The notes under the pieces were generated by a model that saw nothing but the letters and a program-made list of their open reading frames with translations, was not told the origin of the DNA and searched no databases. DNA of 40,142 nt from a virus. The first letter of the stretch is position 1. Every line of letters starts with the position of its first letter. The position numbers were made by a program, and so were the translations under genes. Of this stretch, positions 6,989 to 32,978 are shown in pieces. The DNA lies in IMG/VR virus record IMGVR_UViG_3300045988_046223, positions 1-40,142 of that record; one strand, given 5' to 3'.

Positions 6989-7907
6989 TCAGCAGTTGGC
7001 ACAGAAGCCGAAGTTCAGCGTAATGATCACTACGCAGAGCTACCAAAACTTAATCAACAACACGCTGCGAGACCCAGACCGCGCACGAAGCTTTACCGCC
7101 AGCATCACAAGCGCGGTTGCTGTGAACCCCGCTTTGCAGGAATGCGACGCCGGTACGATTCTTGCCGGTGCGCTGCTGGGCGAGAGCTTGAAGCTCTCCC
7201 CTTCCCCGCAGCTTGGACAGTACTACCTCGTACCGTTTAAGAACAAACGGCAGCAGACCACGACGGCGCAGTTTGTGCTTGGTTATAAAGGTTATGTACA
7301 GCTTGCTTTACGCAGTGGGCAGTACAAAGACCTTGACGTTATGGTTATCAAGCAGGGCGAGTACATGGGCAAAGACCCGGATACCGGCAAGGCGCGTTTC
7401 AAATTTATTGAGGATGACGATGTGCGTGATGCACTTCCGACTGTTGGCTACATGGCTTATTTTGAGTACATGAACGGTTTCCGCAAGGTTCTGTATTGGA
7501 GCAAAGAAAAGATGATGACCCATGCAGACACCTACAGCCCGGCTTTCAGCCGTAAAGGCTATGAAGACCTGCTGGCCGGTAAAGTTCCGCAGAGCGAAAT
7601 GTGGAGGTACAGCTCGTTCTGGTACAAGAACTTCGATGATATGGCGAAGAAAACCATGCTACGGCAGCTGATTTCCCGCTGGGGCGTTATGAGTATTGAC
7701 ATTCAAACGGCACTCGAACATGACGATACCATCACGCATGACAACGACGGCCAGCTTATTGCAGAGCGCGTCGCGTCCGCAAAGGACGTCCGCCTTGAAG
7801 CTGCTGCACAGCCTGTACCGCAGATTGAACAGCCGCAAGCCGAACAGGCCGTTGAAGCCCAGACCACTGCTGCCGAGCCGAAGAAAATCGACTTGAGCAG
7901 CCTGTGA
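6975..7907 (+). CDS. recT: RecT-family single-strand annealing recombinase
   Basis: 310 aa. The region LVPFKNKRQQTTTAQFVLGYKGYVQLALRSGQY is typical of RecT. Confidence 0.9.
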   Translation: MTTSNQQLAQKPKFSVMITTQSYQNLINNTLRDPDRARSFTASITSAVAVNPALQECDAGTILAGALLGESLKLSPSPQLGQYYLVPFKNKRQQTTTAQFVLGYKGYVQLALRSGQYKDLDVMVIKQGEYMGKDPDTGKARFKFIEDDDVRDALPTVGYMAYFEYMNGFRKVLYWSKEKMMTHADTYSPAFSRKGYEDLLAGKVPQSEMWRYSSFWYKNFDDMAKKTMLRQLISRWGVMSIDIQTALEHDDTITHDNDGQLIAERVASAKDVRLEAAAQPVPQIEQPQAEQAVEAQTTAAEPKKIDLSSL

Positions 7908-7908
7908 G

Positions 7909-8562
7909 ATGGACTGCAAGATAATTTCAACTGGGAGCCAAGGGAACGCCGTACTCATTCAAAATTCAATACTGATTGATTGCGGCGTTCCATTTTCTCA
8001 GCTGACAGACGATTACAAAAGCTTGAAGCTCGTATTGCTCACACACATCCACGGCGACCACTTCAACCCCGCCACGCTGCGCAGGCTTGCCAGAGAGCGG
8101 CCTACATTGCGTTTTGCGTGTTGTGTTTGGTTATGTGCAGCCCTCGTGAATGCTGGCGTTAAAATGAGCCAGATTGACGTGATACGAACAGAACGCTGGT
8201 ACAACTACAAGAATCTATGCAGAATTAAGGCGCAGGAAACAAAGCATGATGTACAAAATTGCTGCTGGCATATAGAGCTGCCGCAGCCTCCCGTTGAAAG
8301 ATTGTTTTATGCTACCGACACGAGCAATCTGAACGGAATAACAGCCAAAGGCTATAATCTCTATCTCGTCGAAGCCAACTACACAGAAGCGGACATCAAA
8401 GACCGCATAGCCGAGAAGAAAATCAACGGCGAGTATGTGTATGAAAAGCGCGTGATGCGTGAGCATCTAAGTAAAGAGAAAGCCGACGATTGGCTATACC
8501 AGAACATGACAGCGCATTCCGAATACATCTATATGCACTGCCATCAAGAAAAGGACAACTGA
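7909..8562 (+). CDS. Metallo-beta-lactamase-fold hydrolase (possible recombination nuclease)
   Basis: 217 aa with the motif LLTHIHGDHF. Confidence 0.85.
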   Translation: MDCKIISTGSQGNAVLIQNSILIDCGVPFSQLTDDYKSLKLVLLTHIHGDHFNPATLRRLARERPTLRFACCVWLCAALVNAGVKMSQIDVIRTERWYNYKNLCRIKAQETKHDVQNCCWHIELPQPPVERLFYATDTSNLNGITAKGYNLYLVEANYTEADIKDRIAEKKINGEYVYEKRVMREHLSKEKADDWLYQNMTAHSEYIYMHCHQEKDN

Positions 8563-8564
8563 AT

Positions 8565-9311
8565 ATGGATAAAACAGCCTATATCAAATTATGGCTCGAT
8601 TACAGATGCTATTTTGAGACGCTCAGTGACGCTGAGGTAGGGCGTTTGGTGCGTGCAATGCTCGATTATGAGCTAGACGGAGCAACGCCAAAGTTCAGCG
8701 GGAGTGAACGTGTTCTGTGGCCTGTAATACGGCGAAACATTGATATTGACCATGAATTCTTGGAAAAGCAGGCGAAGAACGGTTCAAAGGGCGGTCGCCC
8801 TAGAAAACCCAAAGAAACCCAACAAAACCCAGAAGAACCCAAAGAAACCCAACAAAACCAAAAAGAGAAAATAGAAAATAGAAAACAGAAAATAGAATAT
8901 ATTACTACTACGACTACCGCGCAAGCGCGCGAAAGCTGGCAACAATGCGTAGATTGCTACGAGCAGAACATTGGCGCACTTCCTCGTGCTGCATTTGATA
9001 GCATTGTGGGATATCTGGAGCAGGTAGAGCCTGACCTTGTTTGCGAGGCAATCAAGCAGGCCGCTATCAACAATAAGCGCTCGTGGGGCTATGCGCAGGC
9101 AATCTTGCGCGACTGCCTGCAAAAGAAAATTACCACCCGCGCGGCGTATCTAGCCGAGAAAGAGGCCAGAAGTCAGCAGAAAGGAACTTCACAACGGAAG
9201 CAGATGAAAACCACACAAGAAAAGCTGCGCGAAATCGCAAAAGGAGGCATAGCAGATGACCTATCAGCAGACGGCGGCGCTCCTGTCGCTGGCTATGAAC
9301 TACTGGGATAA
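8565..9311 (+). CDS. Replisome organizer / DnaD-domain replication protein
   Basis: Starts at ATG 8565. The C-terminal region is DnaD-like (NKRSWGYAQAILRDC). A low-complexity K/E/Q/P linker is encoded by DNA repeats. Confidence 0.8.
   Translation: MDKTAYIKLWLDYRCYFETLSDAEVGRLVRAMLDYELDGATPKFSGSERVLWPVIRRNIDIDHEFLEKQAKNGSKGGRPRKPKETQQNPEEPKETQQNQKEKIENRKQKIEYITTTTTAQARESWQQCVDCYEQNIGALPRAAFDSIVGYLEQVEPDLVCEAIKQAAINNKRSWGYAQAILRDCLQKKITTRAAYLAEKEARSQQKGTSQRKQMKTTQEKLREIAKGGIADDLSADGGAPVAGYELLG
8801..8898. repeat. Phased 10-bp repeats plus AGAAAAT repeats (candidate origin iterons)
   Basis: Six tandem 10-mers (a/t)a(g/a/c)a(a/g)aacc(c/a) span 8801-8860. They include a 19-nt duplication at 8811-8829 and 8841-8859. 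The run gaaaatagaaaatagaaaacagaaaatagaa follows at 8867-8897. Confidence 0.6.
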
Positions 9312-10143: not shown

Positions 10144-10184
10144 TTATGAAACGCATTGAAATCATCACTAAAGGAGATTGTACC

Positions 10185-10850
10185 GTGAAAGTATTAGTTG
10201 CCTGTGAAGAATCGCAGACAGTCTGCAAGGCGTTCCGAGAACGCGGACATGAAGCGTACAGCTGTGACATCCAGGAACCGTCTGGTGGACACCCGGAATG
10301 GCATATTTTAGGCGATGCCATGAAAGCAATCGAGGGGGGGCAAATCGTAACGATGGACGGCAAAACGCACGAAATAAGAAAATGGGATTTGCTTATCGCG
10401 CATCCGCCTTGCACATACCTAACTGTTACCGGGAATCGCTGGTTTGATATTTCACGGTATGGCGGAAAAGCGGTTCAACGTTACAAAGACCGCGAAGAAG
10501 CCGCCGATTTCTTTATGCGGTTTGTTAAATGTAACTCCCCAAAAGTCGCTATTGAAAACCCTATTGGATATATGTCAACAGCATATCAAAAACCAACTCA
10601 AATTATTCATCCGTATATGTTTGGCGCCCCAGCAAGAAAAGCAACCTGTTTATGGCTGAAGGGTCTACCGAAACTAATACCAACCGATATAGTAGAGCCT
10701 GAGATTATTCACTACAAAAACGGTAACGGCACAGATAATCCGTGGCACATGGAAACTATGAAATTGCCACCAAAGGAGAGAGCAAAGGAGCGAAGCAAAA
10801 CCTTTCCCGGTATCGCCGCCGCAATGGCAGAACAGTGGGGCAGTTTATGA
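10185..10850 (+). CDS. C5-cytosine-methyltransferase-like protein lacking an obvious SAM-binding glycine loop
   Basis: GTG 10185 follows an AAAGGAG SD; ATG 10146 is an alternative start. Motifs present: HPPCTYL (PC-like), AIENP (ENV-like) and FPGIAAAMAEQW (motif X-like). Confidence 0.6.
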   Translation: MKVLVACEESQTVCKAFRERGHEAYSCDIQEPSGGHPEWHILGDAMKAIEGGQIVTMDGKTHEIRKWDLLIAHPPCTYLTVTGNRWFDISRYGGKAVQRYKDREEAADFFMRFVKCNSPKVAIENPIGYMSTAYQKPTQIIHPYMFGAPARKATCLWLKGLPKLIPTDIVEPEIIHYKNGNGTDNPWHMETMKLPPKERAKERSKTFPGIAAAMAEQWGSL

Positions 10851-12262: not shown

Positions 12263-12937
12263 ATGGACGCAGTTGAATTTTTCCAGACGGTAAACAGGTT
12301 ATGCAAAAATCAAATATGCGCGGAATGTCCCATTTGTAAAAAGGGCATGATTAAGGATATGTGTATGGTCAGGCGCACGGTTATGCTCGGCGACGCTTCA
12401 GTTGAAAGCATTGAGAAAATGATTTCAATTGTCGAACAATGGGCAAAAGACAACCCCGTCAAGACCCGCAATTTCGCCGTTGAAAGTTTCCGGGCACTTA
12501 TCAAAGCAGAACCTACCGTGACCCCGTCGCCTGTCTACGCAAAGAGAGTCTTATTAGATCGGGAGGTTCGGCACGACCTGCAAAATGCGTTTCCGAAAGC
12601 GTTTTTAAATTTGCGTTTGGAGCTGATCGCTTACCCAGCCCGCAACACCACCGTACCGCTGTACGGTGCGGACACGCTTGACGAACTGAATGCCCGGATT
12701 ATTGAATGGTGCAGCCGTGAAGCCTGTAAGTCCAACAGTCCGGCAAGTATGAAATACCATCTGAACGGCATAAACCAGTTCTGCCACACAGACTTTACCC
12801 GTGACGGCATGGAATATATCTATACTAATCTGGGCAACGGTATCAACCATGATCTGTGCCTGCGCTTTGTCGGTGAAATGGACTTTAATCTGAACAAGCT
12901 GAAACACGAGATTGAGAAAATGGAGAAGCCGACATGA
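12263..12937 (+). CDS. Hypothetical protein
   Basis: 224 aa after an AAGGAG SD, with a Cys-rich N-terminal segment. Confidence 0.7.
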   Translation: MDAVEFFQTVNRLCKNQICAECPICKKGMIKDMCMVRRTVMLGDASVESIEKMISIVEQWAKDNPVKTRNFAVESFRALIKAEPTVTPSPVYAKRVLLDREVRHDLQNAFPKAFLNLRLELIAYPARNTTVPLYGADTLDELNARIIEWCSREACKSNSPASMKYHLNGINQFCHTDFTRDGMEYIYTNLGNGINHDLCLRFVGEMDFNLNKLKHEIEKMEKPT

Positions 12938-13368
12938 ACAGCGCCGTCTTTTACTCCAGTAAAACCGATATGTGGGCAACGCCGCAGGATTTCTTCGATG
13001 CCCTCGACGCCGAATTCCATTTCACGCTGGATGCCTGCGCAGTCAAGGAGAATGCAAAGTGCGAGGCCTACTATACCCCAGAGCAAGACGGCCTTGACCA
13101 GCCTTGGACAGGCCGAGTTTGGTGTAATCCACCATACGGGCGGAACGTTGGCCAGTGGGTCAAAAAGGCCCACGACACTGCTTCTGGGGGGGGATTTGTT
13201 GTTATGCTACTGCCTGCCCGCACTGATACACGCTGGTTTCACGATTACATCTATGGCAAAACGGAAGTCAGGTTTATCAAAGGTCGCTTGAAATTTGGCA
13301 GTTGTCAAAACGCGGCCCCGTTTCCAAGCATGGTTGTAATTTTCGGAGGTGAACGCAAAAATGAGTAG
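12934..13368 (+). CDS. Phage Dam-like N6-adenine DNA methyltransferase
   Basis: 144 aa with FTLDACA and WCNPPYGR (NPPY catalytic motif). Confidence 0.85.
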   Translation: MNSAVFYSSKTDMWATPQDFFDALDAEFHFTLDACAVKENAKCEAYYTPEQDGLDQPWTGRVWCNPPYGRNVGQWVKKAHDTASGGGFVVMLLPARTDTRWFHDYIYGKTEVRFIKGRLKFGSCQNAAPFPSMVVIFGGERKNE

Positions 13369-13945: not shown

Positions 13946-14130
13946 CAAAACAGCAGCTAGTTGATGAATACGCCCGCAAACATCTTTGCGCGACATGCGA
14001 GTGGAAGAATGGCGATATTTGCACGCTGCCGCGCTGCATGAAACTGGAAGAGAGGAGATACAATGACCAGAGAAGAATTCAACCAAAAGAAAGTGTGGCT
14101 ATGGAGATACCAACGCAGCAGGAATCATGA
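13942..14130 (+). CDS. Small Cys-rich hypothetical protein
   Basis: 62 aa. It overlaps the next gene by 68 nt, so its end and its reality are uncertain. Confidence 0.4.
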   Translation: MTKQQLVDEYARKHLCATCEWKNGDICTLPRCMKLEERRYNDQRRIQPKESVAMEIPTQQES

Positions 14131-14494
14131 ACGACAGCTGCGCCAGCAGATACAAAGCGAACGTGAACGGGCAACAGCGACCACTAAAGCATTATCCCCC
14201 GTGGTGGTGTCTGCTGGCGGTAAAAATAAAATCGAGGATGCCGTTTGCAGAATCATGGAGCGTCAGGAAGCTCTATACAAGCAGATTATTGAAACCGAAA
14301 TGCAAAGGGAAGAAATCGAAACCGCAATAAACTCTGTTCAAGACCAAATGCAGCGGGACGTTCTGCGGGAGCGGTATATTGTCGGCACCCCGTATTGGTG
14401 GAAAATTGCGATAAATCTAAATATTTCCGAGCGATGGGCAAAGAAATTACACCGCGCTGCAATTGAAAATCTGTGCACTCCAGTTCACTTTTAA
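14063..14494 (+). CDS. Late-gene regulator with sigma-70 region-4-like HTH (RinA/ArpU-type position)
   Basis: 143 aa after a GAGAGGAG SD. The C-terminus QRDVLRERYIVGTPYWWKIAINLNISERWAKKLHRAAIENL is region-4-like. It is the last gene before the packaging module. Confidence 0.7.
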   Translation: MTREEFNQKKVWLWRYQRSRNHERQLRQQIQSERERATATTKALSPVVVSAGGKNKIEDAVCRIMERQEALYKQIIETEMQREEIETAINSVQDQMQRDVLRERYIVGTPYWWKIAINLNISERWAKKLHRAAIENLCTPVHF

Positions 14495-14834
14495 CCTGCT
14501 ATTATAGATATGCTGGATGATGTAGGAACGGGGCAGCCTACGGTATAGCGAAAACCTCCTTTCTTTACCATTTTCATTTCAATTCTCCTGTTTTCATAGC
14601 TGGCAGCCGGGAAAGACCGGCATTTTATTTGCTGCATAGCTGACCATTTTGGTGACGTTACCAAGATGGTATGAGCGCTGCGTTCCAAAGCAACGGCGCG
14701 GCAAAGGTGCAAGACCTATGTGCAGCACCAACGCCGATGATGCTGGTAAATAGGCAAGTGCAAGCGCATTCCGTTCCCAGCTAGGCAACCACCGCAAGCC
14801 TACTAACAGTGCGTAACCTGCGGGGTTTTTATAT

Positions 14835-14892
14835 GCCCTTGTAGCTCAATGGCAAGAGCCTTGGTGTGCCGGTTCAAGTCCGGCTGAGGGCA
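14835..14892 (+). ncRNA. tRNA-like module lacking the anticodon arm
   Basis: - Acceptor stem 14835-41 / 14885-91 (7 bp, including 2 G-U pairs).
- TA at the positions of nucleotides 8-9.
- D stem GCTC/GAGC with loop AATGGCAA.
- 8-nt linker in place of the anticodon arm.
- T stem GCCGG/CCGGC with loop TTCAAGT.
- Discriminator A. Confidence 0.6.
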
Positions 14893-15283
14893 AAGGCTGG
14901 GTCGCTCCCACCGGTGAAAGCCCGGCGTAGGAAACGCGATAGATAACTGACACACCGGAAGAGCGACGGTGCACAGCCCACTACGAGAGGGCGCATACCC
15001 GATTGCACACCGATTTTGAAAGCGGAGAAGTTCTGGGACGTTTTTACGGTGACATCGAGAAAACCGTTCGGCATCTGCTTGTGCGGACTCCGTTACTGAC
15101 GCAGTTACGCATCGCCGGAACCCATAATATCAAAGCAGAGACCGCGACCAGCGGACGGGATATAAATAACGCTGGATTACGTTGCGGATTTGCTCCCCGC
15201 AACGGGTGAGGTCGGCACAGCATACACCGACAGGGCGGGAACGCGCTTTTCCTCCGGCGCAAAGGGGTTTAGGGGGAATATAA

Positions 15284-15309
15284 GCCTACACAAATTGTGT
15301 GGGCTTTTT
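15284..15309 (+). terminator. Intrinsic terminator just upstream of terS
   Basis: GCCTACACA aat TGTGTGGGC (9 bp, one G-U) followed by TTTTT. Confidence 0.7.
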
Positions 15310-15332
15310 GTGTTGTAAGGCGAGGTGATAAA

Positions 15333-15758
15333 GTGGCATCAAGAAAAAATCCGGTGGGCGCACCACCTAAATACAGAAGCGTAAAGGCAATGCAAGAAAA
15401 GATTGATGCCTACTTTGAAGCCTGCAAAGGACAGCCGTTCGTAGACGATAACGGCGAACCGATGAGAAATAAAAACGGCTATATCATCTATGACGATAAA
15501 AAGCCACCTACTGTGACAGGATTGGCGCTTGCACTTGGTTTTGCATCAAGGCAGGCTCTTTTGAATTACCAAAATAAACCAGAGTTCAATGACACGATTA
15601 CGCGTGCAAAGACCCGTTGTGAACAGTATGCCGAAGAAAGACTGTATGACAAAGACGGCTCAGGCGGCGCACAGTTCAGCTTGCGGGCAAATTTCGGATG
15701 GCAGGATAAGCCGGAACAACAGCAGGATAGCGAGGTGCTAATCATAGATGACTTGTAA
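15333..15758 (+). CDS. terS: Terminase small subunit
   Basis: GTG 15333 follows a GAGGTGA SD. It has an HTH-like segment (PPTVTGLALALGFASRQALLNYQ) and lies directly upstream of terL. Confidence 0.8.
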   Translation: MASRKNPVGAPPKYRSVKAMQEKIDAYFEACKGQPFVDDNGEPMRNKNGYIIYDDKKPPTVTGLALALGFASRQALLNYQNKPEFNDTITRAKTRCEQYAEERLYDKDGSGGAQFSLRANFGWQDKPEQQQDSEVLIIDDL

Positions 15759-29188: not shown

Positions 29189-31051
29189 ATTAGTTATCCG
29201 AGATATTACGACGGCACGACCGGCTTGCAGGGCAACGGCGTGGGGGTGCTGCGGGATGCTGTGCGCTGCACCGTGACCGAAGAGCGAAACGGCGCGTTTG
29301 AACTGGAAATGGTCTATCCCATTACTGGGCAGCATTACAGCAGCTTGGCGCTGCGCGGGCTGATTCTGGCAAAGCCAAACCCCTACGGCGAGGCACAGTA
29401 TTTCCGCATTTATAAAATCAGCCGCCCCATCAATGGACAGGTGACGGTCAACGCGCAGCACATCAGCTACGATTTGAGCGGCATTCCGGTGGGGCCTTGT
29501 AAGGCGTTGAACGCAGTCGACGCCTTGCAGCAGCTCAAAAGCCATGCGGCGGTAAGTTGTGATTACTCATTCTGGACAGACATTCAGACGGTGGCAGACT
29601 TTGCCGTGGCTGTGCCCAGCAGTCTGCGCAGCCTGCTGGGCGGCGTGGAGGGCAGCGTGCTGGACGTCTATGGAGGCGAGTATGAGTGGGACAACACCAC
29701 CGTCAAGCTGCACAGCCAGCGCGGCACCGACCGCGGCGTGACGATCCGCTACGGAAAGAACCTGACAGACCTGACCCAGGAGGAAAGCTGCGCCGAAGTC
29801 TACACCGGCGTTTATCCCTACTGGGTGGACAGTGATGGCAACGTGACCCAGATCACCGGCAGCCCGGTTGTCAACGTGCCGGACGGCCAGTATGACTTTG
29901 TGCGGGTGCTGACGCTGGACGTGAGTCAGGACATAAAAGAGCAGCCCACCGCCGCCCAGCTGCGGCAGGCCGCGCTGGATTATATCAGCGCCAACAAGGT
30001 AGGCGTGCCGAAGGTGAGCCTGACATTGAGCTTTGCCCAGCTGGAACAGACCGCCGAATACGCCGACATGGCCCTGCTGGAGCGGGTATGTCTGTGTGAT
30101 ACCGTTCATGTGCAGTTTGCAAAGCTGGGCGTGAGCGCGGATGCCCGGTGCATCAAAACGGTCTATGACGTGCTGCTGGAGCGGTACGACAGCGTAGAGC
30201 TGGGCGACGCCCGCAGCAGCCTGGCCAACACCGTGGCCGACATGGGCAAAACCGTACAGAGCACCGTAAACAAGACGCGCAGCGACCTGGAGCGGGCCAT
30301 TGACCGCGCCACACAGCTTATCACCGGCAACCTGGGCGGCTATGTGGTGCTGCACAGCTCCACCGGCGCGGATGAGCCGGACGAAATCCTTGTGATGGAC
30401 AAGCCGGAAATCGCCAAGGCCACAAAGGTCTGGCGGTGGAATCTGGCCGGTTGGGGGTACAGCAGCAGAGGCTATGGCGGGCCGTACCGACTGGCCGCCA
30501 CGATGGACGGTGCAATCAACGCCGATTTCATCACGACCGGCAGTTTGAGCGCCAACCTCATTAAAGCCGGGACGATGAGCGCAAATCTTATCCGGGGCGG
30601 CGTGCTGCAATCCACCAACGGAAAGTTCGTGTCCAATTTGGACACGGGAGTCACTACTTTTAACGGCGGGCTGGTGGTGAACAGCGACAATTTCAACATC
30701 GGCTCGGACGGATCGGTGGATATCACCGGTAAATTCACTTCGACGGTGTCGGAGAGCAAGTGCGTCATAGACGACGCAAAAATTGAAATGTACCGAAAAA
30801 CCAATGACGGCAACTGGCACATGGGCGCTTTCATGTCCACGTGGGGGTCGAACAATGCCGTTGGCCGACTGGTGCTGTACGGCCCTGCGGCCAGCAACAC
30901 CAACGATATGATTGCCAACGTCACGATGGCTGGACAGTATTCCGGCGGCGCTATCGCGATAAGCGACGCGAAAGGCAACGTGAAGGTGCAGCTGGGCGTG
31001 GACGGCGCGGGCGACGGCTATGTGTTGGTCAACGGCAGAATGATACAGTGA
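29189..31051 (+). CDS. Tail-associated lysin-like / prophage tail endopeptidase-family protein (Tal)
   Basis: The N-terminus ISYPRYYDGTTGLQGNGVGVLRDAVRCTVTEERNGAFELEMVYP matches typical Tal N-termini. The apparent start is ATT, 6 nt after AGGAGGTG. The first canonical start, TTG 29225, has no SD. Confidence 0.85.
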   Translation: MSYPRYYDGTTGLQGNGVGVLRDAVRCTVTEERNGAFELEMVYPITGQHYSSLALRGLILAKPNPYGEAQYFRIYKISRPINGQVTVNAQHISYDLSGIPVGPCKALNAVDALQQLKSHAAVSCDYSFWTDIQTVADFAVAVPSSLRSLLGGVEGSVLDVYGGEYEWDNTTVKLHSQRGTDRGVTIRYGKNLTDLTQEESCAEVYTGVYPYWVDSDGNVTQITGSPVVNVPDGQYDFVRVLTLDVSQDIKEQPTAAQLRQAALDYISANKVGVPKVSLTLSFAQLEQTAEYADMALLERVCLCDTVHVQFAKLGVSADARCIKTVYDVLLERYDSVELGDARSSLANTVADMGKTVQSTVNKTRSDLERAIDRATQLITGNLGGYVVLHSSTGADEPDEILVMDKPEIAKATKVWRWNLAGWGYSSRGYGGPYRLAATMDGAINADFITTGSLSANLIKAGTMSANLIRGGVLQSTNGKFVSNLDTGVTTFNGGLVVNSDNFNIGSDGSVDITGKFTSTVSESKCVIDDAKIEMYRKTNDGNWHMGAFMSTWGSNNAVGRLVLYGPAASNTNDMIANVTMAGQYSGGAIAISDAKGNVKVQLGVDGAGDGYVLVNGRMIQ

Positions 31052-31062
31052 GGTGGTTTTAA

Positions 31063-32214
31063 ATGGCGGCAGCCAATTACAGCCCGCCCACAGCAGCGCT
31101 TATCAAGGCGACGCGGGCGGATTTTGACCGGCGTGACGTTGTGCAGCCGGTACATCTGGTACAGTACGACGATACGCTCCCGGTGCTGGCCGTGGCCCTG
31201 TACAAGGGCGGGCAGCCCTGGACACTGCCAACCGGCGCGGATGTCAACCTGCGGATGGATAAAAAAGACGGCCACTATGTCTACAACCCGGCGCTGGGCG
31301 TGAGCAGCGACCGCGCCACGGTCTATTTGGCCGTGACGGCCCAGATGACGACCGGCTACGGCACGTTTGCCCCGGTGGTAGAGGTGCTGGCGGGCGGTGG
31401 TGTGGCCGGTATGGCCGCCCTGCGGCTGGAAATTGACCGGAACCCGGTGCAGGATGGAATGCTCGAAAGCACTGACGAATACAAGACCGTGCAGGCGCTG
31501 GCCGCTGAGGTGGCTGCCAACGCCAAAATCGTGCGGGATAATGAAGCGGGCATCCAGGACGTGCACGAAAACATCGAGGCCATCAAGGCCGCGCCTGCCA
31601 ACGCCACGGCCGCTGCGGCCAGTGCGAAAGAGGCCCGCAGCTGGGCGGTGGGAGATACAGCATCCCGCCCCGGCGAGGGCATGGACAACGCCAAATACTA
31701 CGCTGCGCTTGCCCAGCAAGTCAGCCAGGGCGCGGTTGGGTGGTATCCCAACTACGAGGCGCTGTACGCGGCCCACGATACTGGTTATGATGGCAACTGG
31801 GCGATTGTGGGAGATACCGATACTATCTGGGTTTGGGACAGCAATACCGGGGTTTGGAAGGACACCGGCGAGAGCAGCAAGTTTGCGAATTACTACGACA
31901 AGACCCAAATCGACGCCATGCTGGCCGCTATGAAATCGAAGTTGAAGACCGTAACGGTGGCGGCATCAGCCTGGACAACCGGCGATTATACCGTGGCATG
32001 GGACGATGGAACCAGCACGAGTTATACGCAGTGCGCCACTGTCACAGTTTCCGGGGTGACGGCAGACAGCCATATCGTCGTATCTGACCGCACGAGAGTT
32101 ACGGATGCGGTGCGTATTGTAGCCGCGCTGGAACCCGGCGCGGGGGTTGTTAAGTTTTATGCGAACAGTGCGCCAAGCGCTGCGGCGGTGTTTGTGGTGG
32201 AGGTGAGCCAGTAA
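31063..32214 (+). CDS. BppU-like baseplate upper protein / tail fibre
   Basis: 383 aa. The N-terminal region resembles BppU_N (DVVQPVHLVQYDDTLPVLAVALYKGG). A central A-rich coiled coil is present. Confidence 0.65.
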   Translation: MAAANYSPPTAALIKATRADFDRRDVVQPVHLVQYDDTLPVLAVALYKGGQPWTLPTGADVNLRMDKKDGHYVYNPALGVSSDRATVYLAVTAQMTTGYGTFAPVVEVLAGGGVAGMAALRLEIDRNPVQDGMLESTDEYKTVQALAAEVAANAKIVRDNEAGIQDVHENIEAIKAAPANATAAAASAKEARSWAVGDTASRPGEGMDNAKYYAALAQQVSQGAVGWYPNYEALYAAHDTGYDGNWAIVGDTDTIWVWDSNTGVWKDTGESSKFANYYDKTQIDAMLAAMKSKLKTVTVAASAWTTGDYTVAWDDGTSTSYTQCATVTVSGVTADSHIVVSDRTRVTDAVRIVAALEPGAGVVKFYANSAPSAAAVFVVEVSQ

Positions 32215-32978
32215 TGAGTGGGGCAACAAATAACCCGTACCTTGAAGCCGGTAGAGACGACCTGCTGCGAATCATGACGGCCCCCAACGCTGGGGCGCAT
32301 AACGCGGTTTACCGTGGCAAGGCGCTTGGCGGAGAGGCGACGGATGCGCAGTGGGCGGCGATTGCGGCGGGCACATTCGATGATTTGTACATAGGTGACT
32401 ACTGGACGATGGGCGGGGTCAACTACCGTCTTGGGGCGTTCGATTACTTCCTCAACAGTGGTAATGGTAACAAGATTTGTACAACACACCATGCGGTTAT
32501 TATTCCTGATACTTCTCTTTATCAAGCACAGATGAATACCAGTAATGTTACCACTGGTGGTTACACTGGTTCTGCCATGTATAAGTCGAATCTGGCGCAG
32601 GCTAAGACTATTATCAAGGCAGCGTTTGGTTCCGCTCATGTTCTTACAAAGAGAGAACTTCTGACCAATGCGGTAACTGGCAACACCCCTTCGGGTTGGG
32701 CATGGCTCGACTCTGATGTTGAGTTAATGAACGAAGTGCAGGTTTATGGTTCTGTGGCATGGGGCGCACATGATGGCAACGGTTTCAACGTTGCTTCTAG
32801 TGACGGTCAGTTCCCGCTCTTCATGTTTGATCGTACTAAGCTGCATAATCGAGAGGACTACTGGCTGAGAGATGTATCTTCCACTACTCACTTCGCCAGT
32901 GTCGACTACGACGGTTATGCGGACAGCCGCAGCGCTTCTCTCTCTCTTGGCGTTCGCCCGTTTTTCTGCATTTACTAA
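32214..32978 (+). CDS. Putative receptor-binding protein (mosaic)
   Basis: 254 aa with N-terminal MSGATNNPY. A GC-rich N-terminal part is joined to an AT-rich C-terminal part. Confidence 0.7.
   Translation: MSGATNNPYLEAGRDDLLRIMTAPNAGAHNAVYRGKALGGEATDAQWAAIAAGTFDDLYIGDYWTMGGVNYRLGAFDYFLNSGNGNKICTTHHAVIIPDTSLYQAQMNTSNVTTGGYTGSAMYKSNLAQAKTIIKAAFGSAHVLTKRELLTNAVTGNTPSGWAWLDSDVELMNEVQVYGSVAWGAHDGNGFNVASSDGQFPLFMFDRTKLHNREDYWLRDVSSTTHFASVDYDGYADSRSASLSLGVRPFFCIY

What the first reader, a model, noticed from the sequence alone, without database searches (positions are those of the whole stretch)
14495..15309. ORF-free ~0.8 kb densely base-paired region between late regulator and terS: candidate large ornate ncRNA
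**Seen.** Almost every gene junction in this phage is an ATGA-type overlap or shorter than about 60 nt. Between the late-regulator stop (14494) and the terS start (15333), however, no frame holds more than 73 codons.

I could hand-pair many GC-rich local and nested helices on the + strand:
- 14643-53 / 14660-70 (11 bp)
- 14675-78 + 14681-84 with 14692-95 + 14696-99
- 14706-10 / 14725-29
- 14901-07 / 14961-67, enclosing 14911-16 / 14953-58
- 14969-73 / 15004-08, enclosing 14976-79 / 14989-92
- 15046-50 / 15063-67
- 15091-98 / 15102-09
- 15180-87 / 15197-15204
- 15211-15 / 15227-31

The region ends in a clean intrinsic terminator (15284-15309).

**Established knowledge.** The large ROOL and GOLLD RNAs occur mostly in Firmicutes prophages and are often next to, or embed, tRNAs.

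**Inference.** This is either a member of such a class or an undescribed large phage RNA. I cannot assign the class by eye. I also found no sigma-A-type promoter, so it may be late-transcribed.
Basis: partly seen in the sequence, partly recalled or inferred. Interest (0 to 1): 0.85.

Follow-up and report, generated by a model that had tools for sequence, protein, structure and literature searches.

The report
Mosaic phage leader of small RNAs
The 0.8 kb gene-free gap before the DNA-packaging genes of this gut phage is real structured non-coding RNA. It is not one giant ornate RNA but a patchwork of small units: two tRNA look-alikes, several hairpins, the already catalogued D12-methyl motif and two terminators. 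These units are shuffled among hundreds of related phages.

Summary
The gap 14495-15332 is non-coding. No open frame matches Pfam or PHROGs, substitutions show no codon periodicity, and indels are frequent.

Rfam gives no ROOL, GOLLD, HEARO, tmRNA or RNase P match. It does find D12-methyl (RF02950, 15180-15243, 92 bits) and a 58-nt tRNA-like element lacking the anticodon arm (14835-14892).

Comparison with more than 120 related IMG/VR contexts shows a + strand mosaic of independently present or absent modules:
- a candidate extended -10 promoter (14497-14505);
- terminator T1;
- a 100-nt cloverleaf ending in ACCA (14631-14730);
- the armless tRNA mimic;
- a chain of local hairpins;
- D12-methyl;
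- terminator T2.

Relatives carry true tRNAs at the same place. Some lack 14643-15179 altogether.

D12-methyl always precedes the first packaging-block gene, whichever gene that is.

Best reading: this is a late-operon leader and tRNA-island-type cassette array that is processed into several small RNAs.

A single large RNA of about 420 nt (14893-15312) is not excluded. Interest is moderate.

The parts
14063..14494 (+). Late transcriptional regulator gene. It belongs to the Ltr superfamily (DUF1492/LtrB type, with a weak RinA match). This is context, not part of the RNA.
   Evidence: Pfam PF07374 at 4.9e-08 and PHROG 36/248 'transcriptional regulator/activator'. TIGR01636 RinA at 25.8 bits, below its cutoff. 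DUF1492 is the LtrB family in PMC3753634.
14497..14505 (+). Candidate extended -10 promoter TGCTATTAT with no -35, 3 nt after the regulator's stop codon. The predicted start is near 14512.
   Evidence: It is the only + strand match in 14400-15340, and there are 7 in the whole 40 kb + strand. TGNTATTAT is kept, with N varying (C/G/T), in 52 of 68 related contexts, 95-125 nt upstream of the T1 U tract and behind two different regulator genes. Function is inferred.
14606..14630 (+). T1: a terminator-like hairpin GCCGG-GAAAGA-CCGGC followed by AUUUUAUUU, ending exactly where the cloverleaf RNA begins.
   Evidence: Found by the terminator scan. The hairpin has compensatory CGG/CCG to CCG/CGG changes and is replaced by unrelated hairpin-plus-U-tract sequences in other relatives.
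14631..14730 (+). M1: a 100-nt cloverleaf-shaped RNA. It has an 8-9 bp acceptor-like closing stem, a long variable arm 1 (14643-14670), arm 2 (14675-14699) and arm 3 (14705-14717), and an encoded 3' ACCA tail. It is not a canonical tRNA because it has no T-loop.
   Evidence: MFE z -5.1 on + against -1.45 on -. In 43 sequences, 10 of 34 pairs have compensatory changes. Arm 1 is swapped between three unrelated hairpins. ACCA is kept in 40/43. There is no Rfam or ARAGORN hit. Present in 46/103 contexts.
14733..14834 (+). M2: a variable spacer ending in a hairpin plus GGGGUUUUUAUAU directly before the tRNA-like element.
   Evidence: Present in only 10/103 contexts. 55% of columns vary among colinear relatives. 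MFE z -0.6.
14835..14892 (+). M3: a 58-nt tRNA mimic with acceptor stem, D arm (with GG) and canonical T arm (GGTTCAAGTCC), in which 4 nt replace the anticodon arm. No CCA is encoded.
   Evidence: Rfam tRNA 40.9 bits (gathering score 29) with 18 model positions replaced by 4 nt. ARAGORN finds no tRNA. The same 58-nt form recurs in 50/103 contexts at median 100% identity. Acceptor variants turn wobble pairs into Watson-Crick pairs.
14893..14950 (+). M4a: the most widespread module after D12-methyl. It always starts within about 3 nt of the 3' end of a tRNA or tRNA-like element and contains the local hairpin 14911-14/14922-25.
   Evidence: Present in 91/103 contexts. It always directly follows a tRNA(-like) 3' end, whichever one that is. 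A D12-methyl motif lies 220-280 nt downstream in nearly all further loci. There is a compensatory C-G to A-U change in the hairpin.
14951..15068 (+). M4b ('beta body'): a chain of local hairpins (14953-57/14967-71, 14976-79/14989-92, 14998-15001/15033-36, 15010-12/15023-25, 15046-50/15063-67). Most relatives have an unrelated 'alpha body' here instead.
   Evidence: Present in 19/103 contexts; the alternative alpha body is seen. The local structure is 98.8% paired with 4 compensatory pairs and 0/500 shuffles.
15069..15140 (+). M5: a nested hairpin (15081-89/15103-12 enclosing 15091-94/15098-101) inside stem 15069-72/15114-17. An invariant 7-nt pair of complementary segments (15074-80 and 15133-39) would make a pseudoknot with that stem.
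   Evidence: Present in 63/103 contexts. In 49 sequences there are compensatory changes in 4 inner pairs and 2 outer-stem pairs (GC to CG x8, GC to AT x9). The 7-bp pairing never varies, so it is untestable.
15141..15179 (+). X module: stem 15148-53/15170-75 around a 16-nt loop carrying the conserved GACGGGATATAAATA core. Relatives have 1-3 copies just 5' of D12-methyl.
   Evidence: At least 5 unrelated stem sequences of 5-9 bp flank the same core. All within-type variants are G.U, never A.C. 42% of instances have stems of 6 bp or more, against 13% with a shuffled flank.
15180..15243 (+). D12-methyl RNA motif (Rfam RF02950): hairpin 1 15180-87/15197-204, linker GGGUGAG, hairpin 2 15211-15/15227-31, tail AGGGCGGGAACG.
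   Evidence: 92.2 bits against a gathering score of 57, full length 1-64. In 78 sequences, both hairpins show compensatory changes, for example G-C/A-U/C-G at one pair.
15244..15281 (+). Class-A extension containing an anti-Shine-Dalgarno-like UUCCUCC that can pair with GGGGGAA (15249-55/15272-78), or be looped out by GCGC/GCGC.
   Evidence: Conserved in 84/103 contexts together with T2. Only wobble changes are seen and no compensatory pair, so the structure is unproven.
15282..15312 (+). T2: an intrinsic terminator with an 11-bp stem, a 3-nt loop and a U tract, 20 nt before the terS start codon (RBS GAGGTGA 15322-28, GTG 15333).
   Evidence: Found by the terminator scan. MFE z -3.6. Two pairs have compensatory changes in 5 sequences. 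It is absent in class-B relatives, where D12-methyl lies about 30 nt before the start codon.

Best explanation
The gap is a mosaic, + strand non-coding leader of the late (packaging) operon, built like a phage tRNA island.

**Proposed course of events**
1. Transcription starts at a -35-less extended -10 promoter directly behind the Ltr-type late regulator gene (14497-14505). I infer that this promoter is Ltr-assisted.
2. Transcription then runs through a string of self-contained RNA modules:
   - terminator-like hairpin T1;
   - a 100-nt cloverleaf ending in ACCA;
   - a 58-nt tRNA mimic without an anticodon arm;
   - a chain of small hairpins (M4a, M4b, M5, X);
   - the D12-methyl motif;
   - terminator T2, 20 nt before terS.
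3. The two tRNA-like elements keep what RNase P, RNase Z and the CCA-adding enzyme recognise: acceptor stem, T/D elbow or an ACCA end. I therefore infer that the primary transcript is cut there. That would release small stable RNAs and a 3' piece (about 14893-15312) that begins right after the tRNA mimic, carries D12-methyl and ends at T2.
4. Transcripts that pass T2 become the terS mRNA with D12-methyl in its 5' leader.

**Shown:** non-coding status, + strand RNA structure of the modules, modularity, the D12-methyl assignment, and the fixed position of D12-methyl before the first packaging-block gene.

**Inferred:** the promoter, co-transcription, processing, and what the RNAs do.
For: **Non-coding**
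- No Pfam or PHROG hit for any open frame.
- Variable sites fall 66/59/57 over the three codon positions and there are 87 indel columns. The flanking genes give 3/1/15 and 6/1/21.

**RNA on the + strand**
- Compensatory changes occur in M1 (10 pairs), M4 (4 pairs), M5, D12-methyl and T2.
- Stem variants are G.U, never A.C.
- M1 is stable on the + strand only.

**Modularity**
- Modules occur in dozens of presence/absence patterns over 103 contexts.
- 14643-15179 is absent in L004, L007 and L058.
- True tRNAs (Thr, Trp, Met, Ser) lie on the same strand in the same gap in relatives.

**Junctions follow tRNA logic**
- M4a always starts at the 3' end of a tRNA or tRNA-like element.
- Every tRNA(-like) unit examined (two in the window, three in L201) is preceded by a hairpin plus a U-rich run.

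**Leader position**
- D12-methyl lies on the same strand, 20-260 nt before terS (61 contexts), a terL-like gene (15), a ParB-N gene (15), a D12 methyltransferase gene (8), a portal gene (8) or a PLD-like gene (2).
- In L006 a deletion fuses M4a directly to the terS ribosome-binding site. There terS can only be transcribed through the array.

**Promoter**
- The conserved TGNTATTAT is described.
- Ltr proteins act on promoter regions just distal to their own gene and upstream of terS (PMC3753634).
Against: - There is no expression or end-mapping data. The promoter is only a consensus match.
- Two good terminators (T1, T2) lie between that promoter and terS, so late expression would need read-through or antitermination. 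I found no alternative (antiterminator) pairing.
- M1 lacks a T-loop, so RNase P/Z processing of it is uncertain.
- M4a and D12-methyl co-occur at a roughly constant spacing of 220-280 nt. That would also fit one functional RNA rather than independent pieces.
- Most relatives come from one metagenome collection and are close (mean column identity about 90%). Covariation therefore rests on few independent events.
Confidence: 0.55

Rival explanations
1. One large functional ncRNA of a new class. The stretch from the 3' end of the tRNA mimic to T2 (14893-15312, about 420 nt), or the whole 0.8 kb, acts as a single folded RNA. D12-methyl is its conserved 3' domain, M4a its conserved 5' domain, and the middle domains are variable. 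A tRNA-like element sets its 5' end, as with the tRNA-linked GOLLD and ROOL RNAs.
For: - M4a (91/103 contexts) and D12-methyl (103/103) are the two most widespread modules.
- They keep a spacing of about 220-280 nt in further loci.
- M4a always abuts a tRNA(-like) 3' end.
- GOLLD likewise has a conserved 3' region and a variable 5' region and lies near tRNA islands (PMC12286853).
- M5 and X may form pseudoknots.
Against: - No supported helix joins different modules. All compensatory pairs are local.
- The middle can be absent (a 48-114 nt spacer in L171, L007 and L058) or replaced by an unrelated alpha body.
- D12-methyl can follow a tRNA directly (L113) or be missing altogether (L006).
- The whole-region MFE is not exceptional.
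Confidence: 0.17
2. A cis-acting antitermination or attenuation leader. D12-methyl (two hairpins plus conserved single strands) or the Ltr protein makes RNA polymerase resistant to T1, T2 and later terminators. This would resemble HK022 put RNA or lambda Q at PR'-tR'. The small RNAs would then be passengers.
For: - The architecture is regulator gene, then promoter, then terminators, then late genes.
- D12-methyl is always at the head of the packaging block, whatever the first gene is, with T2 (class A) or without it (class B).
- T2 is conserved, with compensatory changes, only 20 nt before terS, so late transcription must cross it.
- The comparison with put and lambda Q rests on my own knowledge.
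Against: - There is no sequence or structural homology to put, and no test of termination.
- L006 and L009 lack both D12-methyl and T2.
- L292 and L293 carry a D12-methyl with hairpin 2 deleted.
- Published Ltr proteins are described as activators of initiation, not antiterminators.
Confidence: 0.15
3. A decaying tRNA island. M1 and M3 are tRNA pseudogenes and the hairpin chain is recombination debris with no function. Only D12-methyl and the terminators matter.
For: - The composition is mosaic and relatives carry true tRNAs at the same place.
- M3 looks like a tRNA with its anticodon arm deleted.
- Most modules have ordinary folding energies.
Against: - The 58-nt armless form is identical or nearly identical in 50 contexts whose flanks differ.
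- M1 keeps its shape through compensatory changes and arm swaps, and keeps ACCA in 40/43.
- M4a and M5 are conserved more widely than any single tRNA.
Confidence: 0.08
4. A DNA-level element. The repeated CGCGGGATATAAATA cores, and the similar core inside M4a, are binding repeats for the Ltr activator or a pac-site array for the small terminase, not RNA.
For: - Ltr proteins bind direct DNA repeats upstream of terS (PMC3753634).
- The core recurs 1-3 times just upstream of D12-methyl and contains a -10-like TATAAAT.
Against: - The cores are flanked by inverted repeats whose sequences differ between types but stay complementary, with G.U variants only. That points to a + strand RNA hairpin.
- The cores occur behind at least two unrelated regulator genes and before operons that start with different genes.
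Confidence: 0.04
5. A decayed protein-coding gene.
For: None beyond the presence of short open frames.
Against: - No family hits.
- No codon periodicity and many non-triplet indels.
- Relatives carry tRNAs and RNA modules there, not a conserved gene.
Confidence: 0.01

Closest known systems
D12-methyl RNA motif (Rfam RF02950; from the Weinberg et al. 2017 motif survey, PMC5737381)
   Same: 15180-15243 matches the whole 64-position model at 92 bits. It has both hairpins, the GGGUGAG linker and the AGGGCGGGAACG tail, and both hairpins covary in 78 relatives. In 8 related contexts the next gene is a D12-class adenine methyltransferase, the gene class that gave the motif its name.
   Different: - It covers only 64 of the 838 nt.
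- In this window the next gene is terS.
- Across relatives the common denominator is 'first gene of the packaging block', not the methyltransferase.
- Its function is unknown. I could not retrieve the original description: the main text has no mention and no supplement is held.
GOLLD and ROOL large ornate RNAs
   Same: They are phage- or prophage-borne, non-coding, and next to or embedding tRNAs. GOLLD has a conserved 3' part and a variable 5' part (PMC12286853; PMC5737381).
   Different: - No match to either Rfam model even at E<=10.
- No large conserved core and no supported long-range helices.
- The middle of the region is dispensable in relatives.
Phage tRNA islands with co-transcribed small stable RNAs of unknown function (for example the phage T4 tRNA cluster with its species 1 and 2 RNAs; own knowledge)
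   Same: A same-strand array of tRNAs or tRNA-shaped RNAs plus other small structured RNAs, with unit borders at tRNA ends.
   Different: - There is no sequence relation.
- This window has no canonical tRNA at all.
- Co-transcription and processing are not shown.
tRNA mimics used as processing or enzyme-recognition handles (mascRNA at the MALAT1 3' end; the bacterial Y-RNA-like YrlA tRNA-like domain; own knowledge)
   Same: M3 keeps the acceptor stem, the D-loop GG and a canonical T arm but cannot decode. The downstream RNA starts at its 3' end.
   Different: It comes from a different domain of life or has a different architecture. In YrlA the acceptor end is closed and the anticodon side is open, whereas here the reverse holds. 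No enzyme assay has been done.
Ltr-controlled late promoter regions of Gram-positive phages (RinA, ArpU, LtrB/DUF1492, LtrC; PMC3753634)
   Same: [quoted passage not shown]
   Different: - Described regions are short: the transcription start lies 28 or 118 bp before terS.
- Here the interval is 838 nt, full of RNA modules, with a strong terminator 20 nt before terS.
- The direct repeats that bind Ltr were not identified here.
Lambda Q / PR'-tR' late leader and HK022 put RNA (own knowledge)
   Same: A regulator gene is followed by a promoter, then terminators ahead of the late genes. put is a two-hairpin RNA of about 65-70 nt acting in cis.
   Different: There is no homology and the idea is untested. 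It is an analogy only.

Membership tests
D12-methyl RNA (RF02950) | Covariance-model score at or above Rfam's gathering score over the full model | tested here: met
   92.2 bits against 57, model positions 1-64 of 64, at 15180-15243 on the + strand.
D12-methyl RNA (RF02950) | Two hairpins maintained by compensatory changes, with a conserved linker and 3' tail | tested here: met
   In 78 sequences, hairpin 2 pairs are GC:46/AU:28/CG:3 and UA:45/CG:32. Hairpin 1 has GC/AU/GU pairs. The linker and tail are invariant or nearly so.
D12-methyl RNA (RF02950) | Location upstream of a D12-class N6-adenine DNA methyltransferase gene (the name-giving context, recalled from memory) | tested here: inconclusive
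   In the window the next gene is terS. In 8 of about 120 related contexts it is a PF02086 methyltransferase. Context is not part of the Rfam model.
ROOL (Rfam) | Match to the Rfam covariance model | tested here: not met
   No hit at the gathering threshold in the window nor at E<=10 in 14300-15500.
GOLLD (Rfam) | Match to the Rfam covariance model (conserved 3' region) | tested here: not met
   No hit, nor in 30 related loci at the gathering threshold.
HEARO, tmRNA, RNase P RNA (Rfam) | Match to the Rfam covariance models; for tmRNA also ARAGORN | tested here: not met
   No hits.
tRNA | Covariance-model score above the gathering score | tested here: met
   14835-14892 scores 40.9 bits against 29.
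tRNA | An anticodon stem-loop with an anticodon | tested here: not met
   18 model positions are replaced by 4 nt. ARAGORN reports no tRNA in the window. It is therefore filed as a tRNA mimic, not a tRNA.
tRNA | Cloverleaf with a canonical T-loop, tested for the 14631-14730 element | tested here: not met
   The element has a closing stem, three arms and ACCA. However, arm 3 is a 4-bp stem with a 5-nt GCAAG loop, and there is no Rfam tRNA hit at E<=10.
Intrinsic (Rho-independent) terminator | GC-rich hairpin directly followed by a U tract; activity in vivo | tested here: inconclusive
   The sequence features are met for 15282-15312 and 14606-14630, and both hairpins show compensatory changes. 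Termination itself cannot be tested with these tools.
Ltr-dependent late promoter region (PMC3753634) | Promoter just distal to the ltr gene, with direct repeats bound by the Ltr protein and an Ltr-dependent transcription start | tested here: inconclusive
   A conserved extended -10 lies 3 nt after the stop codon. I found no clear direct repeats. Binding and the transcription start cannot be tested here.

The most novel reading that the evidence does not exclude
The stretch from the tRNA mimic to T2 (14835-15312), together with the CCA-ended cloverleaf, is an undescribed class of modular, tRNA-linked phage RNA, and D12-methyl is merely its most conserved 3' domain.
- Its anticodon-less tRNA mimic and its ACCA-ended cloverleaf would be made in bulk late in infection.
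- They would act on the host tRNA machinery or on tRNA-targeting defences, for example as decoys for enzymes that recognise the acceptor end or the tRNA elbow.
- The D12-methyl domain would couple their production to read-through into the packaging genes.
Probability: 0.2. Interest if true: 0.75.

Novelty: new variant of a known kind. Interest (0 to 1): 0.5.

Why it matters
D12-methyl is an orphan Rfam motif. Placing it in the leader of the packaging operon, directly behind an Ltr-type late regulator and a tRNA-type RNA array, gives it a testable job: control or marking of late transcription.

The same locus offers two conserved non-decoding tRNA look-alikes. One lacks the anticodon arm. The other is a 100-nt cloverleaf with an encoded ACCA end. 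Both occur in more than a hundred gut-phage contigs.

If these RNAs are made and are stable, they would add to the short list of phage RNAs that imitate tRNA without decoding. They would also be candidates for interference with tRNA-processing or tRNA-targeting host systems.

The locus is also a caution. A long ORF-free, GC-rich gap with many hand-drawn helices need not be a single ornate RNA.

Tried and rejected
- **Known large RNA classes.** Rfam at the gathering threshold on the whole window and at E<=10 on 14300-15500 gave no ROOL, GOLLD, HEARO, tmRNA or RNase P hit. Weak hits (Plastid-ycf2, snoR113, RsmY, a group II fragment and others) are far below their gathering scores and are treated as noise.
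- **Sequenced phages.** blastn of 14400-15400 against 50,697 GenBank phage records gave no match.
- **Literature.** 'D12-methyl' is in none of the searchable papers. The 2017 survey's main text does not mention it and its supplements are not held.
- **Decayed CDS.** Rejected.
Rejected in favour of local hairpins.
- **Riboswitch-type antiterminator.** I looked by eye in 78 aligned sequences for a segment able to pair with the 5' arm of T2 and found none. The extension hairpins show only wobble changes.
- **Sigma-70 two-hexamer scan.** It found no + strand promoter in the gap. A separate extended -10 scan did find one.
- **X cores as a promoter.** I considered the X cores (TATAAAT) as the late promoter, with D12-methyl at the 5' end of the transcript. 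I did not adopt this, because the flanking arms covary as an RNA hairpin and the left arm would then not be transcribed. It is not excluded.
- **Regulator structure.** The regulator has no relative among PDB sequences.
Full report
**Setting.** The window is a siphovirus-type phage genome.
- Upstream of the gap lies a 143-aa protein with DUF1492 (PF07374) and PHROG 'transcriptional regulator/activator' matches, plus a sub-threshold RinA match.
- DUF1492 is the LtrB family of the Ltr late-activator superfamily. [quoted passage not shown]
- Downstream lie terS (GP3_package, GTG at 15333), terL and an SPP1-type portal.

- The gap 14495-15332 has no start-to-stop ORF above 73 aa.
- None of its open frames matches Pfam or PHROGs.
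- In an alignment with five colinear relatives, the flanking genes show the expected third-position excess (3/1/15 and 6/1/21 variable sites). The gap shows 66/59/57 and 87 indel columns. It is non-coding.
Folding energy for the whole stretch is unremarkable and not strand-specific (z -1.9 and -2.2).
- Split into pieces, only 14631-14732 (z -5.1 on +, -1.45 on -) and the terminator region (z -3.6) stand out.

**Known families.** Rfam finds two things at gathering threshold.
- D12-methyl (RF02950) at 15180-15243, at 92 bits against 57.
- The tRNA model at 14835-14892, at 40.9 bits against 29, with the anticodon arm missing. ARAGORN calls no tRNA.
- Nothing resembling ROOL, GOLLD, HEARO, tmRNA or RNase P appears even at E<=10.

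**Relatives.** The region has no match among GenBank phages.
- Scans of IMG/VR with terS and with a D12-methyl pattern returned 199 loci, giving 123 distinct contexts. Two more scans added about 90 loci.
- Among GTDB species representatives, true matches occur in a Gemmiger sp. and a Bulleidia sp. genome.

**The region is a mosaic.** BLAST against these loci breaks the gap into blocks with sharp borders. Over 103 contexts with full flanks the blocks occur as follows:

| Block | Contexts (of 103) |
|---|---|
| D12-methyl | 103 |
| M4a (14893-14950) | 91 |
| Extension plus T2 | 84 |
| M5 (15069-15140) | 63 |
| Armless tRNA mimic (M3) | 50 |
| M1 (14631-14730) | 46 |
| M4b (14951-15068) | 19 |
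| X (the window's type) | 11 |
| M2 | 10 |

- There are dozens of combinations.
- L004, L007 and L058 lack 14643-15179 altogether.
- L171 has only 48 nt between T1 and D12-methyl.
- Many relatives carry genuine tRNAs (Thr-UGU, Trp-CCA, Met-CAU, Ser-GCU) on the same strand in the same gap.
- This is the behaviour of a cassette array, not of one RNA with a fixed architecture.

**Module by module.**
- *M1.* This is a cloverleaf with an 8-9 bp closing stem, three arms and an encoded ACCA tail, kept in 40 of 43 sequences. Ten of 34 pairs show compensatory changes. Arm 1 exists as three unrelated hairpins. It has no T-loop and no Rfam hit, so it is tRNA-like in outline only.
- *M3.* It keeps U8, the D-loop GG and a canonical T arm (seen directly in the sequence). 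It recurs nearly unchanged in 50 contexts.
- *M4a.* It always starts within about 3 nt of the 3' end of whatever tRNA or tRNA mimic precedes it.
- *14893-15068.* The local-hairpin model is 98.8% paired, with four compensatory pairs and 0/500 shuffles reaching it.
- *M5.* The nested stems and the outer stem have compensatory changes.
- *X.* A conserved CGCGGGATATAAATA-like core sits between arms that differ completely between types yet stay complementary (at least five stem families of 5-9 bp). Within-type variants are G.U only.
- *D12-methyl and T2.* Both D12-methyl hairpins and T2 covary. The extension between them does not.
- *Strand.* Across all modules the wobble variants are G.U on the + strand, with no A.C counterparts. 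This points to + strand RNA.

**Where D12-methyl sits.** In every context it lies on the coding strand, 20-260 nt before the first gene of the packaging block. That gene may be any of six kinds:
- terS (61 contexts)
- a terL-like protein (15)
- a ParB-N-domain protein (15)
- a D12-class methyltransferase (8), the association behind the motif's name
- an SPP1-type portal (8)
- a PLD-like protein (2)

Most contexts (class A, including the window) have the extension and T2. Class B has no terminator, and the motif lies about 30 nt before the start codon. D12-methyl is therefore a late-operon leader element rather than a methyltransferase-specific one. Exceptions exist:
- L006 and L009 have a deletion joining M4a directly to the terS ribosome-binding site.
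- L292 and L293 have lost hairpin 2.
- In a Bulleidia genome an M1-like cloverleaf replaces hairpin 1.

**Promoter.** The two-hexamer scan found nothing on the + strand. An extended -10 (TGCTATTAT) lies at 14497-14505, 3 nt after the regulator's stop codon.
- It is the only such + strand match between 14400 and 15340, and one of seven in the 40-kb + strand.
- It is kept as TGNTATTAT, with a variable N, in 52 of 68 related contexts behind two unrelated regulator genes.
- A promoter with a good -10, no -35 and a position just distal to the ltr gene fits what is published for Ltr-dependent promoters.
- If it is the late promoter, the whole gap is the late-operon leader, and both T1 and T2 must be crossed to reach terS.

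**Most likely mechanism (inference).**
1. Late transcription starts near 14512.
2. The tRNA-shaped elements are recognised by RNase P and RNase Z, as in any tRNA operon. This releases M1, M3 and a 3' RNA that starts at 14893 and ends at T2.
3. Read-through of T2 yields terS mRNA with D12-methyl in its leader.

I put 0.55 on this array-and-leader reading. The alternatives are:
- one functional RNA of about 420 nt with D12-methyl as its 3' domain (0.17);
- an antitermination device analogous to put RNA or lambda Q (0.15).
- inert tRNA-island debris, a DNA-level repeat element, or a decayed gene (small remainders).

**Comparison and novelty.**
- The D12-methyl part is already known as a motif of unknown function.
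- tRNA islands and tRNA-adjacent phage ncRNAs are known kinds.
- To my knowledge, and by absence from Rfam 15, three things are new: the composite architecture, the armless tRNA mimic and the ACCA-ended cloverleaf as conserved units, and the reassignment of D12-methyl to the head of the packaging operon behind an Ltr regulator.
- I rate it a new variant of a known kind, with interest 0.5. It is well above background because it makes an orphan motif and two tRNA mimics experimentally approachable.

**Limits.**
- There are no expression data.
- The relatives are close (about 90% column identity) and mostly from one metagenome collection, so compensatory 'events' are few.
- The promoter, the processing and every functional statement are inferences.

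Noticed in passing
L293:5141-5193 (+): A RAGATH-5 self-cleaving ribozyme candidate (RF02685, 52.3 bits against a gathering score of 50) lies in a related phage contig, a few kb from the RNA array.
   Followed up: no
L015:2459-2544, L028:2467-2552, L065:2468-2553 and others: At the position of the window's armless tRNA mimic, other relatives carry an 84-86 nt element. ARAGORN calls it 'tRNA-His (atg)'. It has an 8-bp acceptor stem, a poor anticodon stem and a long extra arm, and scores 40-45 bits on the Rfam tRNA model. It shares only the T arm and 3' acceptor strand with the 58-nt form. It is probably another non-standard tRNA-like RNA.
   Followed up: partly
L201:7129-7303 (Bulleidia sp. genome contig CAVKDR010000004.1): An M1-like cloverleaf ending in UCCA is fused directly to the GGGUGAG linker of D12-methyl and takes the place of hairpin 1. 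Upstream lie a tRNA-Thr and a 66-nt tRNA-like element with a reduced anticodon arm. Each of the three units is preceded by a U-rich run, two of them by a clear hairpin + U run.
   Followed up: partly
window 10146-10850 and 12934-13368: Two DNA methyltransferase genes (PHROG 757; Dam PF05869) lie in the early block of this phage. In eight relatives a third kind, a D12-class PF02086 methyltransferase, is inserted between T2 and terS.
   Followed up: partly
L185 (context around 7620-8700): The 'alpha body' that follows M4a is split by an insertion of about 700 nt containing small ORFs. D12-methyl then lies 987 nt from M4a instead of about 250 nt.
   Followed up: no
window 14932-14946 compared with 15154-15169: The 3' half of M4a (AAACGCGATAGATAA, flanked by short complementary arms in most relatives) resembles the core of the X module (GACGGGATATAAATAA). 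The same kind of loop may therefore recur up to four times between the tRNA mimic and D12-methyl (by eye).
   Followed up: partly
window 14553-14562 and 15249-15255: Anti-Shine-Dalgarno-like CCUCC tracts occur in the leader before T1 (AAACCTCCTTT, also kept behind the second regulator type in L006) and in the extension after D12-methyl (TTCCTCC).
   Followed up: no
alpha-body relatives, e.g. L001:2660-2700: The alpha body contains CGCAACGGGAC, which resembles the 3' strand of D12-methyl hairpin 1 plus the start of its linker (CGCAACGGGTGAG). It may be a degenerate duplicate (by eye).
   Followed up: no
window 15124-15132 (- strand): An extended -10-like TGATATTAT lies on the - strand inside M5, pointing away from terS. 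It may be a chance match.
   Followed up: no
window 29200-32400: G+C rises to 57-63% against about 50% elsewhere, in the region of the large late ORFs after the tape-measure gene. This may mark a horizontally exchanged tail or host-range module.
   Followed up: no
L018, L006 and about 15 further loci, gene just upstream of the array: A second, unrelated 129-aa protein (PHROG 11237, unknown function, no Pfam or NCBIfam hit) occupies the place of the DUF1492 regulator. It is followed by the same TGNTATTAT, T1 and M1. It may be an undescribed late-regulator family.
   Followed up: partly
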